DNA of 64,000 nt from Tubulanus polymorphus (taxonomy: Eukaryota; Animalia; Nemertea): assembly GCF_964204645.1 (NCBI RefSeq), contig NC_134026.1:3805950-3869949 (forward strand), given 5' to 3'. Below, piece by piece: positions 11,756 to 36,823 of the stretch (position 1 is the first letter of the stretch; each line of letters starts with the position of its first letter). The notes below the pieces were generated by a model that did not search any database, was not told the DNA's origin, and worked only from the letters and a program-made list of their open reading frames with translations. The position numbers were made by a program, and so were the translations under genes.

Positions 11756-14700
11756 ATGGTCCTTGCAAATGTTATTTTTGGAGTAAAGTGTGAAACGATG
11801 TCTACGACCTCACAAGAAAACGAAGACGAATTCTTAACAATCGCACCAGAGGTGAATTTCTATTTTTTTTGTAAAATTACTGGTCAAACCACATAGATGA
11901 GATTTAGATAGGTTTCGATTGGACTACCGATTCAGGAATATCTCTTCCGGTGCGTTCGTTTCGACCAGCGGCTCTGCCTATTCAGGAATAGCATAAACCT
12001 GATAGAAGCGACCGGTAGAGAGTTTGTGATACGGAATTCTATCCTTAAACCGAAATAAGTGCAACCGAAACCTGTCTGGATCCCATGAAATCCTCTTGAA
12101 ATCAAATGGCCGATGAAATCATAGAACTCAAATCAAATTGATTTGAGCTCTATGATGAAATCAAGTGTTAAAGTCACCAGCAAAGACGTGACGATGAAAA
12201 ACCATTATTGAGAACAAATCGACACATCGATTTGCTGAAACGAATATTCGTCGAACACAGATATTCTTGTGATATTTTCTTTTTATCTTGTATCAGGAGA
12301 AAGAAGATGATCTTCTGGCTGACGGGTTGATGCAGAAACTGCAGCAACTTGTTGTGAAGCAAGGCGTCGATCTGTCGAATAAGACACAGACTCAGATGTT
12401 GAACGCACTTGAAAATGTCATTACCGAAAGCCATAACCCAGCGGTATGATTACTTAAAGTTAATTGTACTTTCTCGAATTTAAACGTCGCCTGTTTCAAC
12501 ACGAAGAATGGATGATTTGATTTGATTTAAATTAGATACATATGTCACGCTCGACGGGGTTCGGCGCACATGTCGGAAATCAAATTATATCTCAAATATG
12601 TATCCGTTGTTATTCGCAGGCCAAGAAACATTTGCTCGGCGGCAGCTTGGAAGGATTAGTACGTATATTATATAACCAAAACGATTTTCATCTTCCAATA
12701 ATTCTTGATTTTTTCGAAACGTTCCTAAAAATCCAGTTCAACAAAGCACATATTCTCAATTTGCACCAGAATCTATCTGCGCATGTTAGCCAATTCTATG
12801 TACATTAACAGTGAAATCAAAATCAGTATGAATTTGTGTGTAGAGTTCTACGCTCAGTCATTTTTTGAGTTTGAATTGATAGATTCTGTAGTGTTTGTTT
12901 ATGCATTGGTTTTCACACGATACAACATAACAACAGCTCGTCCATCCTAGAATCTGGGGCTGAGTATTTACCAAACTGTGTATAGATTCAGGAAAAAGGA
13001 CCCCTTAAACCAACATCCATTCTATACGATATTGAATAATAAACAATTATCAATAGTTAGGTAATCATCATTGTGGGGCATGTTTCTATACCAGACGTTG
13101 TTACTGTTTCGTGTAAACACAGACCGTGAAATTTAATGATGGATGTTTCAACGTTTTATGTAGTACGAACATGATTCGTCGATGATTCAAATTCGCCTCA
13201 ACGACAAGAACCGAAAAATGCAGGAGCCATCGAAACTTTGGAAAAATGGCATCGTCCCTTACGTTATTCTCGACAAAAGTCGGACCAAGAAACCGTTGAC
13301 GCGGCATCAAAAGCGTCTGCTTGAAAAGACGATCAGATTCTTCGAGAGTAAAACATGTTTAACCTTTCCAAAGTGGTACAAAGGTTTTAACAAAGATCAT
13401 AATCGCGACGTAGACGGTTATTTGAGATTTTTCCAAGGAGACGGGTAAGCTGGTTTCATAAAAAAATCGCGGCGAGGATTGGCTATTTATCAGTTAGAAT
13501 CATTAAATTAAGCGTGACCTTTTCTATTGATATGTATAGCTGTTTCTCCGGGGTTGGAAATTGGAAATCAAAATACGGTCAACCGATCTCACCATGCGAT
13601 CATATGGTAAGCTTGAAAGCTTGAAAATCATAATTCGCGTTATACATCACTAATGTTACTTCATATCATAAAACAGTTGAACAGTTTAAGGCTCACCGCA
13701 TGTGCGACATTACGAGCTGTCATGATTGACCTCTCAGCTATCGTACAATGATGGTAATGACATGCGATAATTGTCCTCATTTTGTAACCTTTATATAATA
13801 CACGATGAAATAGTGTCTCCGCACAAGCACAAAATGACCACACTTACCACTGGGCGCTACCGTAACCAGTCCTTTTTCGACCGAATTGTACATATTTTTA
13901 TCAATATACGTAGTGTACACCGATAAAGAAGGATATGATGATAACTATGATATCACGACACAATCACATGATATTTCATTTATACATTGCGGAAGTTTTC
14001 TGAAAATGTTTTCTTATGATTTCTATAGTCGACCGTGATGCACGAGATAGGTCATGCGATTGGAATGGAACACGAGCAATCCAGGCTGGATAGAGACCGT
14101 TATTTGAAAGTTTATCCAGAAAACTCCAGTACGTTGTATAAAGAATAGTTAGAATTGAAAAAAAATTATCGATTTGTATAGAAATCATTGCTGATCTGAT
14201 AGAGAGATAGTTGGCGCATAGATTTTAATTAAAATTGAACTTGAAATGATCGAAAGTTCAATCACATATAATGCGATATTCTGACTGACTTGATCTCTTT
14301 TCATCATATATCTAATGATAGCAATTTGAGCTGATTGAATATATTTCTATAGAATTGACGATGAATAAGCACGGTGCAGCGGACACAATATTTGATCTAT
14401 CTGCACCATACGACATGTCATCAATCATGCAATATGGATTATGGGTAAGAAGTTCAAAACTTAAAAATCAATAATGTAAAAATGTCGTCAGTTTGAAGCG
14501 AAAATAACTAAAACAGGAAATCTAGGCTAAAATATGGGCTACACAGTGAAGAATGAAGGTTTTGCTTTTTCAATCCATGAAATTTGATAAGACCGTGGTA
14601 GAATTGCTTCCATGCCTCCGTAGACCAGACCATCATCAAGGGCTGCCAACCTCTGAAAAGTGCTGTTAGTGACAAATTGATTTTTTCAGTAACATTTCAT

Positions 14701-35700: not shown

Positions 35701-36823
35701 CTGTATCGTATTTTGTTGAATAGATAAATGTAATAGAGACAATGTGAGATGATATGAGATACGTTACATTGTCGCATCATGTTACAGCCAAAACGCCCTT
35801 CGTAAAGCTCTTTTATGCGATTTGGCATAAACAATTTGAGGAAAAAGTTATTGAAAAAATTTGTAGGTAATGAGTCTAGACTTACAAAAGTACTTCCTCG
35901 GAAACGTGTTATATATTCATGTGCTCAATCTGTGAGCAAAATATAGACTAGTATCCTATTTGTTCCAGCATGTCCAGGTGGATTCACAGATTATGGTAGC
36001 GTATGTTACAAGCTGTTTACGGCGATGAAGGACTTCGCTCTCGCGGATGAGACTTGTCAGATGTATGGCGGCCATCTTGCTTCAATACCCGATTCGAAGA
36101 CGAATGAATTATACAAAAACGTTGCGTAGGTTTTTTTCCACACCGGTATATACTGCAGATCTTCCGACTGAAAAAAGCGCATTTTATTCATTAGATTAGG
36201 TTAACATTGAAAATACGACAGTTCAATATGCAATCATTTCGTTTGTAGCAAAGATTCAGGTCAAAGCGTGTGGATCGGAGCCAACGATCGTGCGACAGAA
36301 GGAGATTTCGTCTGGACTAGTGGCAAAACTTTACAGTTTACTGACTGGGGTAAATACTGGAAAACGTACCAGCAACCGTGGACCAGTGGTTCGTTGTCTG
36401 GCGATTGCGTCGTACTCAGCAAAGAAGGCTGGATGAAATATGCGTGGGATGATATCTCGTGCGCGTCAAAGGAAGCTTTTATCTGTGAAATTCCTCGTCC
36501 GACTGAAGGTATGTGAAATGTTTTGTCTATTCTAACATGGTCCTGGCAACCAACTCGTTTCTGCAACTTTTTAAATATTCATAACCGAATACACCCGCAC
36601 TGATCGTTATATCCATTTATTCTGAGTTTTGGTTTCAGGTTCTGAGGAAATCTGCGGGCGTCCTTCACTTCACTTCAATATCGTCTCAAATTCCGAGAAA
36701 ACTGTTTTTGAGATAGGTGAAAGTGTGAAGTTTAGTTGTAAAACCGGAAATCTAGTCGGCGATCAGAGTCTCGTCTGTAATGGAGGGAATATTTGGTTGG
36801 GAATTCCTCCAACCTGCCATTAA
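11756..36823 (+). CDS. Giant secreted multidomain astacin-family metalloprotease with EGF, ApeC, CUB, 7 kringle, 2 ShK, 13 C-type lectin and 18 CCP/sushi domains
   Basis: Chain of GT-AG exons; phases were checked by hand from the pre-pro region through the first ShK domain and at several later junctions. Signal-peptide-like end [13 protein letters not shown] in exon 11752-11851 (the true start codon may be in an upstream exon). Stop TAA at 36821-36823 after the final CCP, with no transmembrane segment seen. Domain counts come from manual reading of Cys/Trp patterns. Confidence 0.85.
11897..12086. repeat. Imperfect inverted repeat (foldback/MITE-like) in an intron
   Basis: Arm 11897-11925 (atgagatttagataggtttcgattggact) matches the reverse complement of 12058-12086 (atgggatccagacaggtttcggttgcact) at 23 of 29 positions. 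Confidence 0.55.
13164..15058 (+). CDS. Astacin (M12A) catalytic domain exons of the giant gene
   Basis: Exons 13164-13444 (LWKNGIVPY...FESKTCLTF...YLRFFQGDG), 13540-13606 (CFSGVG), 14029-14128 ([23 protein letters not shown], the HExxHxxGxxHE zinc motif), 14353-14444 ([11 protein letters not shown], Met-turn), 14932-15058 ([14 protein letters not shown]). Confidence 0.95.
14632..14849. mobile_element. MITE-like non-autonomous DNA element in an astacin-domain intron
   Basis: Inverted ends atcatcaagggctgccaac ... gttggcagctctgatgat enclose about 180 nt of AT-rich non-coding sequence. The ends resemble hAT-type CAGGGxTGCCA termini. No target-site duplication identified. Confidence 0.5.
15152..16310 (+). 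CDS. EGF-like domain followed by apextrin C-terminal (ApeC) domain
   Basis: EGF exon 15152-15283: CNNEGF...[15 protein letters not shown]. ApeC exons 15366-15665, 15744-15947, 16179-16310: [10 protein letters not shown]...[19 protein letters not shown]...GAIPDG...IQFCCRSDG...[12 protein letters not shown]...CQQVEGM...LYHCSY. Confidence 0.85.
16393..19347 (+). CDS. CUB - kringle - ShK - CCP - canonical C-type lectin (QPN/WND) - ShK - CCP exons
   Basis: CUB: CGG...ITSPGYPN...CLWFIK...YCG...RGF. Kringle: YRGTVN...NNYCRNPG...PWCY. ShK: CLDLWDNC...CRRSCNLC and CEDTLKNC...[43 protein letters not shown]. Confidence 0.88.
19532..20417 (+). CDS. About 166-aa domain of unknown family within the giant gene
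   Basis: Exons 19532-19695 and 20084-20417 join in phase, flanked by phase-1 introns: ...[39 protein letters not shown]...[12 protein letters not shown]...[10 protein letters not shown]. Confidence 0.75.
20630..36823 (+). repeat. Six tandem multi-exon cassettes CCP-CTLa-CTLb-(kringle)-CCP-kringle-CCP
   Basis: Cassettes start near 20630, 23120, 26272, 29169, 31976 and 34752. Recurrent motifs: ERCPxGW, VWIGxND...YWxxYxQP...[10 protein letters not shown]...WDD, CQRWDSQxP. Unit 1 has a single kringle-CCP, unit 2 has two kringles, and unit 6 ends after the CCP that follows the lectin pair. Confidence 0.9.
26620..32165 (+). repeat. Recent tandem duplication, period about 2.83-2.84 kb, including introns
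   Basis: About 26620-29360 matches about 29450-32165. The offset is exactly 2840 over about 26950-28120, and introns 27455-27527 and 27788-27892 read identical to their copies. Confidence 0.95.

What the first reader, a model, noticed from the sequence alone, without database searches (positions are those of the whole stretch)
11756..36823. Single-chain 'sensor-protease': intact astacin fused to ApeC and an array of about 40 lectin/kringle/CCP modules
Seen: one spliced reading frame joining an intact astacin active site, EGF, ApeC, CUB, 2 ShK, 13 C-type lectin, 7 kringle and 18 CCP domains, with no membrane anchor. Known: ApeC domains of amphioxus apextrin-like proteins bind bacterial peptidoglycan, C-type lectins bind glycans, and horseshoe-crab factor C couples CCP and lectin modules to a serine protease. 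Inference: this may be a metalloprotease-based analogue, a secreted multivalent pattern-recognition or agglutination scaffold carrying its own zymogen, acting in immunity, mucus/venom or egg-coat processing. I know no characterised protein with this architecture, although the N-terminal astacin-EGF-ApeC-CUB-kringle part may have uncharacterised invertebrate relatives.
Basis: partly seen in the sequence, partly recalled or inferred. Interest (0 to 1): 0.82.

Follow-up and report, generated by a model that had tools for sequence, protein, structure and literature searches.

The report
Giant secreted astacin-lectin-kringle mosaic protease
An invertebrate gene predicted to encode one 4,500-residue secreted zinc protease, whose front third matches an untested protein type already found in limpet foot mucus and whose rear two-thirds are a string of 35 duplicated binding modules that likely tether the enzyme to mucus or microbes.

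Summary
The anatomy is real. The start is 11078 (signal peptide), not 11756, and a 166-aa unnamed domain was missed. The first ~1,300 aa are collinear with 1,230-1,450-aa gastropod proteins (E 1e-122 to 1e-92). A protein with that domain list, P-vulgata_14, is published from limpet pedal mucus and was proposed, untested, to be antibacterial. What appears new is the 3,209-aa tail: six tandem CCP-CTL-CTL(-kringle) units under purifying selection, spliced on where the limpet protein stops. One transcript is likely (~0.8) but unshown: no RNA run was listed. The 'sensor-protease' reading is weak. Astacin propeptides are removed by other proteases, relatives carry furin-type sites, only 1 of 13 lectin domains keeps the standard calcium/sugar site, and the array kringles lack the lysine-binding pair. 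Best reading: a mucus/surface metalloprotease with a greatly enlarged multivalent tether. Verdict: new variant of a described but uncharacterised kind. Uniqueness is only weakly tested, because proteins over 2,000 aa were mostly outside my searches.

The parts
11078..11791 (+). Predicted signal peptide (exon 1, 11078-11100, plus start of exon 2 from 11752), aa 1-21
   Evidence: highest hydropathy of the protein; donor in the 99th percentile
11792..13214 (+). Acidic propeptide, aa 22-~120; YEHDS in place of the FXGDI aspartate-switch motif; junction reads K-N-R-K, not a furin site
   Evidence: motif definition; exon choice here is the least constrained part of the model
13215..15058 (+). Astacin (M12A) catalytic domain; zinc motif at 14041-14073 followed by family Glu and XXRXDRD; Met-turn SIMQY at 14421-14435
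   Evidence: Pfam PF01400 E 4e-10 on exon 7; motif positions; defining features
15152..15283 (+). EGF-like domain
15366..16310 (+). ApeC domain; 8 cysteines kept, no exact DXED motif
   Evidence: PF16977 E 8e-12 and 2.5e-11
16393..17046 (+). CUB domain
   Evidence: first exon, E 8e-4; 26-35% identity to relatives' CUB
17166..17535 (+). Kringle 1, the family's 8-cysteine type
   Evidence: 38-52% identity to relatives; mean score 212 against 58-84 for kringles 2-7
17620..19347 (+). ShK1 - CCP1 - CTL1 (only CTL with QPN...WND) - ShK2 - CCP2, in the same order as in the relatives
19532..20417 (+). Unnamed 166-aa domain X; the C-terminal domain of the two Patella relatives
   Evidence: no Pfam hit; score 90 against shuffles 29.5 +/- 5, max 54 of 500; alignment
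20418..20629 (+). Intron 26, the junction between conserved core and array
   Evidence: donor 99th and acceptor 97th percentile, phase 1 matches, no AATAAA/ATTAAA, no alternative start candidate in it
20630..23044 (+). Array unit 1: CCP3 - CTL2 - CTL3 - kringle 2 - CCP4
23120..25914 (+). Array unit 2: CCP5 - CTL4 - CTL5 - kringle 3 - CCP6 - kringle 4 - CCP7
26272..34624 (+). Array units 3-5, each CCP - CTL(A) - CTL(B) - CCP - kringle - CCP
26647..32161 (+). Youngest tandem duplication (26647-29354 against 29477-32161)
   Evidence: dN 0.018, dS 0.053; 0 gap positions in 1,680 exon nt against 47 in introns; collapsed-contig depth 55-62 against 34-42 on the flanks
34752..36823 (+). Array unit 6: CCP17 - CTL12 - CTL13 - CCP18, stop TAA at 36821-36823
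36973..36978 (+). AATAAA 150 nt after the stop, likely polyadenylation signal

Best explanation
This is likely one gene for a secreted ~508 kDa astacin zinc-protease zymogen of the limpet P-vulgata_14 type, whose C-terminus has been extended by repeated internal duplication into a 35-module array that would tether the enzyme to mucus or microbial surfaces. Shown from sequence: signal-like N-terminus, intact catalytic motifs, collinearity with the gastropod core, tandem growth and purifying selection of the array. Inferred: after secretion a second protease removes the propeptide; ApeC and CTL1 would bind microbial wall or glycans near the active site; the array works by avidity, with six B-type CTLs (conserved QP...WDD and an aromatic insert) as the likeliest binding sites and the degenerate CTLs, CCPs and kringles as spacers or protein-binding modules. 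The result is a surface-retained protease for mucus upkeep or defence, not a switch.
For: Uninterrupted frame and typical splice scores. Of 29 alternative in-frame starts found inside introns, none reads as a signal peptide; the best-scoring owes its score to a stretch inside a CTL exon. The nearest other genes I could recognise are on the opposite strand on both sides. BLASTP aligns window aa 19-1140 to P0042 as one piece (29%, E 2e-122), and similarly to P0041, P0038, P0040 and P0044. Modules match by position: CCP1 to the relatives' first CCP, CCP2 to their second. The six CCPs that open the array units score 64-80 against the relatives' second CCP and 26-38 against the first, so the array partly grew from this gene's own module; P0038 and P0040 show a smaller CCP-CTL extension. 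pN 0.24-0.35 against pS 0.64-0.98 between old repeats. P-vulgata_14 peptides were found in pedal mucus of three limpets (PMC7333891). A snail ApeC protein with all three DXED motifs mutated still binds peptidoglycan and agglutinates (PMC9585378).
Against: No transcript evidence. The limpet relatives end exactly at domain X, and read-through of the exon-26 donor gives a stop after 21 codons, so a short form is possible. Kringles 2-7 are only 23-26% identical to kringle 1, so part of the array came from elsewhere. In the free ApeC tree the window row falls outside the family clade (0 of 200 bootstrap trees hold it in), although it is a long branch and the AU test does not reject one clade (p 0.34). 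The junction lacks a furin site, so the activator is unknown. The mucus role rests on one relative at 26-52% domain identity, whose function is untested and which is not among the five genes with a specific in situ signal. No ligand was tested for any module.
Confidence: 0.5

Rival explanations
1. Two products or two genes: a ~1,330-aa limpet-like protease ending after exon 26, and the array made separately or included only in a long isoform.
For: Patella P0044/P0050 stop at domain X; read-through stop 21 codons into intron 26; array kringles are unlike kringle 1; 10 AATAAA hexamers lie in introns of the gene, at about 0.8 per kb.
Against: Intron 26 is 212 nt with strong splice sites, matching phase and no polyadenylation hexamer; the 46 array exons encode disulfide modules with no signal peptide of their own; GC3 is 0.43 in both halves. 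Alternative polyadenylation would still leave the long form.
Confidence: 0.2
2. Same single gene, but a matrix-processing enzyme (egg coat, hatching, tube, adhesive or shell matrix), the array gripping a repetitive structural substrate rather than microbes.
For: Hatching enzymes and BMP1/tolloid are among the astacin structures matched by a relative's model; most array CTLs lack standard sugar sites; sea-urchin apextrin is a matrix protein (PMC8361754); the limpet protein came from adhesive mucus.
Against: All ApeC proteins tested in the two papers read bind peptidoglycan or microbes; the relatives' CTLs mostly keep EPN/QPD-type motifs; rapid copy gain is more typical of defence genes (recalled).
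Confidence: 0.2
3. One reading: ligand binding by ApeC/CTL clusters the molecules and triggers zymogen activation, a metalloprotease analogue of horseshoe-crab factor C.
For: Recognition modules and zymogen share one chain; this copy lacks the furin-type site its relatives have and keeps an aspartate at the switch position, so activation may be regulated outside the cell; clustering could allow cleavage in trans.
Against: Astacin propeptides lie in the cleft in reverse and are not cut intramolecularly; the junction is basic, which suggests an outside trypsin-like or convertase enzyme (inference); 12 of 13 CTLs are non-standard; the module order and protease class differ from factor C (recalled).
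Confidence: 0.1
4. The array length is inflated by mis-assembly, or the array is decaying.
For: Units 3 and 4 are ~97% identical; no listed contig spans the whole stretch.
Against: Collapsed contigs run at depth 55-62 against 34-42, near the 1.73-fold expected for two copies; the copies differ at 108 aligned positions; no stop or frameshift in 46 exons; dN below dS. Run X1 may be the assembly's own source, so it is not independent.
Confidence: 0.03

Closest known systems
P-vulgata_14 (Patella vulgata pedal-mucus protein, PMC7333891) and database relatives XP_050395931.1, KAK6185631.1 (Patella), GFO31145.1 (Plakobranchus), XP_005092781.2 (Aplysia)
   Same: Domain set M12A, ApeC, CUB, kringle, 2 sushi, CTL, ShKT. 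The database proteins share the order astacin-EGF-ApeC-CUB-kringle-ShK-CCP-CTL-ShK-CCP, the 8-cysteine kringle and, in Patella, domain X.
   Different: They are 1,230-1,450 aa with 1-3 CTLs and one kringle; this one adds 3,209 aa. Most have R-X-K-R at the junction; this one does not. That XP_050395931.1 is P-vulgata_14 is inferred from species and domain list, not checked by sequence.
Mollusc ApeC-containing proteins, complex groups 8/9 (PMC9585378)
   Same: Aplysia XP_005092781.2 is in that paper's accession list; groups 8 and 9 are described as having more than ten domains.
   Different: I could not see the figure, so the group assignment is inferred; only short-form ACPs were assayed.
Astacin family (MEROPS M12A; crayfish astacin, BMP1/tolloid, meprins, hatching enzymes)
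   Same: Signal, propeptide and catalytic domain with all catalytic motifs; EGF, CUB, ShK, kringle, sushi and CLEC are listed as known accessory domains.
   Different: ApeC/apextrin does not occur in that review's main text; FXGDI is replaced by YEHDS; about 45 accessory modules.
Mannose receptor family (MRC1, DEC-205, PLA2R)
   Same: Tandem CTL arrays; best PDB and database matches of the CTLs. Only a minority of their domains bind sugar (recalled).
   Different: Membrane receptors without protease, kringle or CCP; identity 29-40%, generic CTL likeness only.
Horseshoe-crab factor C (recalled; nothing read)
   Same: CCP and CTL modules on one chain with a protease zymogen.
   Different: Serine protease at the C-terminus that autoactivates on LPS; here an N-terminal metalloprotease with no known autoactivation route. 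An analogy only.

Membership tests
Astacin (M12A) | HEXXHXXGXXH zinc motif with catalytic Glu | tested here: met
   aa 224-234, 14041-14073
Astacin (M12A) | Family-specific Glu followed by XXRXDRD | tested here: met
   exact match after the third His (definition)
Astacin (M12A) | Met-turn SIMHY with Tyr two residues after Met | tested here: met
   SIMQY at aa 276-280: Met and Tyr kept, His replaced by Gln
Astacin (M12A) | Signal peptide and propeptide with FXGDI aspartate switch | tested here: inconclusive
   signal-like N-terminus present; YEHDS keeps Asp but not the consensus; the five relatives with a propeptide also lack FXGDI
Astacin (M12A) | Zinc-dependent proteolytic activity | not testable with these tools
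   needs recombinant enzyme
P-vulgata_14-type astacin-ApeC proteins | Collinear astacin-EGF-ApeC-CUB-kringle-ShK-CCP-CTL-ShK-CCP | tested here: met
   4 of the 8 hits carry all six Pfam families, 3 are partial, 1 is an apextrin
P-vulgata_14-type astacin-ApeC proteins | ApeC domain groups with the family in a tree | tested here: inconclusive
   free tree places it outside on a long branch; AU p 0.34 (22 rows)
P-vulgata_14-type astacin-ApeC proteins | Presence in mucus | not testable with these tools
   needs proteomics or expression data
ApeC domain | Eight conserved cysteines | tested here: met
   8 Cys in aa 370-581
ApeC domain | Three DXED motifs | tested here: not met
   none exact; also mutated in BgACP1 and amphioxus ACP5; BgACP1 still binds
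Calcium-dependent C-type lectin CRD | EPN/QPD-type motif plus E/Q and WND calcium-site ligands | tested here: not met
   met by CTL1 only (QPN, WND; 1 of 13). Six B-type domains keep QP and WDD but have W/H/T and G at two ligand positions. Five A-type domains lack the inner disulfide and all ligands; CTL2 lacks the ligands. Ligand positions are recalled and read from alignment to MRC1.
Lysine-binding kringle (plasminogen type) | Asp-X-Asp anionic centre after the NYCRNP motif | tested here: not met
   absent in kringles 1-7 by alignment; site definition recalled
Factor-C-like autoactivating sensor protease | Serine-protease domain | tested here: not met
   no trypsin family hit in 70 exon pieces
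Factor-C-like autoactivating sensor protease | Ligand-triggered zymogen activation | not testable with these tools
   needs biochemistry

The most novel reading that the evidence does not exclude
A single 500-kDa chain in which a mucus astacin has lost its constitutive furin site and gained an array of paired C-type lectin domains with a new, non-EPN/QPD binding pocket (the invariant aromatic QP...WDD loop). Multivalent capture on a microbial surface would then bring about activation in trans: the first pattern-triggered metalloprotease zymogen.
Probability: 0.1. Interest if true: 0.85.

Novelty: new variant of a known kind. Interest (0 to 1): 0.48.

Why it matters
It ties an extreme mosaic protein to a lineage of invertebrate mucus astacins that has been listed but, in the papers I found, never assayed. 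It also shows how such a protein grows: CCP-CTL duplication, kringle capture, a recent 2.8-kb tandem copy and exon homogenisation. The six B-type CTL domains keep an unusual pocket through saturated synonymous divergence, which makes them a concrete target for finding a new lectin specificity. If activation proved ligand-dependent, it would extend protease-based pathogen sensing from serine proteases to metalloproteases.

Tried and rejected
No whole genome is held for this window. No RNA holder was listed; X1-X3 behave as genomic contigs and X4 laid 0 records, which says nothing about expression. The genome-index search did not complete, so relatives' genomes were not examined. Word-based search with the ApeC exon gave 5 candidates and none significant. 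With the B-type CTL profile it gave 6 of 1,854 candidates, all generic multi-CTL proteins. Both covered only proteins up to 2,000 aa. HMMER over 1.84 billion representatives with the ApeC exon gave 21 hits; 20 have ApeC and none has a Pfam astacin hit, but fragment P0026 showed the astacin end, EGF and ApeC and led to the family. The Atlas gave only weak leads for domain X (PHR, Lectin_like; low recognition) and nothing for P0026. The domain X model from 4 rows had pLDDT 39.5; the best Z was 6.2 among mixed beta-sandwiches, so no fold is assigned, and the PDB sequence search found nothing significant. A model of relative P0039 (pLDDT 57) matched astacins but was too poor to place ApeC against the active site. 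Start at 11756 rejected: it follows an acceptor and truncates the signal peptide. Earlier scan notes: nothing on this architecture (one partial match). Literature searches found the core in one paper and no description of the long form. The library lacks most subscription papers, including the general ApeC survey these papers cite.
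Full report
Observation. Six-frame translation showed cysteine-rich exons on the + strand from about 13100 to 36820. Reading the DNA, I built a 72-exon model, 11078-36823, that translates to 4,513 aa without a stop; every intron is GT-AG and 53 of 71 are phase 1, at module borders. There are two corrections. 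The start is an upstream 23-nt exon at 11078 that completes a signal-peptide-like N-terminus. An unnamed 166-aa domain X (19532-20417) was missed. There is no transmembrane stretch. An AATAAA lies 150 nt after the stop. The neighbours I could recognise by eye, an SH3/SH2-type gene upstream and a peptide-receptor-type GPCR downstream, are on the opposite strand (names recalled).

One gene or two. No RNA run was listed, so this rests on DNA. Leave-one-out splice scores put the exon-26 donor in the 99th and the exon-27 acceptor in the 97th percentile of all GT/AG sites in the region. Intron 26 (212 nt) has no polyadenylation hexamer. None of 29 alternative in-frame starts inside introns looks like a signal peptide. 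The weakest sites are the donor of exon 31 (57th percentile) and the acceptor of exon 6 (51st). The exon 7-8 junction gives a loop about six residues shorter than in relatives, so details of the model may change. I put one long transcript at about 0.8.

The assembly holds up. Contigs of run X1 match 14816-26734 without a difference and collapse over the near-identical repeat at depth 55-62 against 34-42, close to the 1.73-fold that two copies predict. X1 may be the assembly's source. Of 12 listed differences that I mapped, 4 are exonic substitutions (3 change a residue) and both indels are intronic.

What it is. A HMMER search with the first ApeC exon gave 21 hits. One fragment, P0026, carried an astacin end and EGF before ApeC. 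Searching with it returned 8 proteins of 696 candidates; 4 carry astacin, ApeC, CUB, kringle, sushi and CTL together, 3 are partial and 1 is an apextrin. Named members are from Plakobranchus, Aplysia and Patella. The window protein aligns to them in one piece over about 1,100 residues at 28-31% identity, E 1e-122 to 1e-92, module for module. Kringle 1 is their 8-cysteine type, and the two Patella proteins end with domain X (score 90 against 29.5 +/- 5 in 500 shuffles). Against this, the ApeC tree does not put the window row in the family clade, though the branch is long and one clade is not rejected. Kang et al.'s limpet study (PMC7333891, author name recalled; passages and section 3.4 seen) reports P-vulgata_14, with the same domain list, in bulk pedal mucus. 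It proposes an antibacterial role and says this needs verification. The Aplysia accession is in the supplement of PMC9585378 (part 1 of 2 seen; passages; figure not seen). So the core is described but, in what I read, uncharacterised. The organism was not determined; a lophotrochozoan is a weak inference from the relatives.

What is new. After domain X come 46 exons, 3,209 aa, in six units that each open with CCP-CTL-CTL. The opening CCPs resemble the relatives' second CCP (64-80 against 26-38), which points to growth from within the gene; kringles 2-7 are unlike kringle 1 and probably came from elsewhere. Old repeats are near or at saturation at synonymous sites yet 32-62% identical as protein within the CTL and kringle classes. 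The youngest pair has dN/dS about 0.34 and no exonic gap. Kringles 5 and 7 are 94% identical although neighbouring exons are saturated, which suggests exon conversion. I found no other protein with this tail, but the word-based searches stopped at 2,000 aa and genomes could not be searched, so uniqueness is weakly tested.

How it likely works. The catalytic domain keeps the zinc motif, the family Glu with XXRXDRD, and the Met-turn Tyr (definitions from PMC9848320, section 2.1 read whole; its figure and supplements not seen). That review states that astacin propeptides cannot be cut intramolecularly. Four of five relatives with a propeptide have R-X-K-R at the junction; the window has K-N-R-K and no R-X-[KR]-R there or between core and array. 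Activation by an outside protease is the simplest inference. ApeC keeps 8 cysteines and no exact DXED motif; a snail ACP mutated in all three motifs still binds peptidoglycan (PMC8361754 passages, report the same mutations for amphioxus ACP5). Only CTL1 has a standard calcium site. Six B-type CTLs keep QP and WDD and an invariant aromatic insert in 6 of 6 copies but lose two ligand positions. Five A-type CTLs lack the inner disulfide. The kringles lack the acidic pair for lysine. I therefore read the array as an avidity tether with few active sites per unit, as in mannose-receptor arrays (recalled), holding an ordinary astacin on mucus or microbes (0.5). Rivals are a two-product locus (0.2), a matrix or egg-coat role (0.2), a true sensor-protease (0.1) and an artefact (0.03).

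Verdict. A real and unusual gene; a new variant of a described but untested kind. Interest 0.48.

Noticed in passing
window 1947-6906 (-): Exons of a gene with SH3-like and SH2-like segments, divergent from the astacin gene; named by eye from the translation.
   Followed up: no
window 40104-40781 (-): Last exon of a rhodopsin-type GPCR resembling pyrokinin/neuromedin U receptors (recalled), convergent with the astacin gene.
   Followed up: no
window 9320-9630: GC-rich degenerate tandem repeat upstream of the gene, with repeat-type joints in X1-X3.
   Followed up: no
window 11994-12027 and 14640-14850: Pieces of high-copy genomic repeats inside introns 2 and 8 (summed contig depth in the thousands).
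   Followed up: no
window 28182-28451, 31020-31289, 33943-34212: Kringle exons 49, 57 and 65 are 92-98% identical as protein although exon 65's neighbours are saturated against theirs: likely exon-scale gene conversion.
   Followed up: partly
window 19532-20417 and P0044/P0050 C-terminus: Domain X has no Pfam family; probably a beta-sandwich (low-confidence model, weak PHR/Lectin_like leads).
   Followed up: partly
P0050 about aa 790-940: The Patella proteins carry a cysteine-rich repeated insert inside their first CCP domain that the other relatives and the window lack.
   Followed up: no
P0022 (OWF42800.1): Scallop GRL101-like receptor with ApeC, discoidin, CUB, CTL and LDLa modules: another ApeC mosaic.
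   Followed up: no
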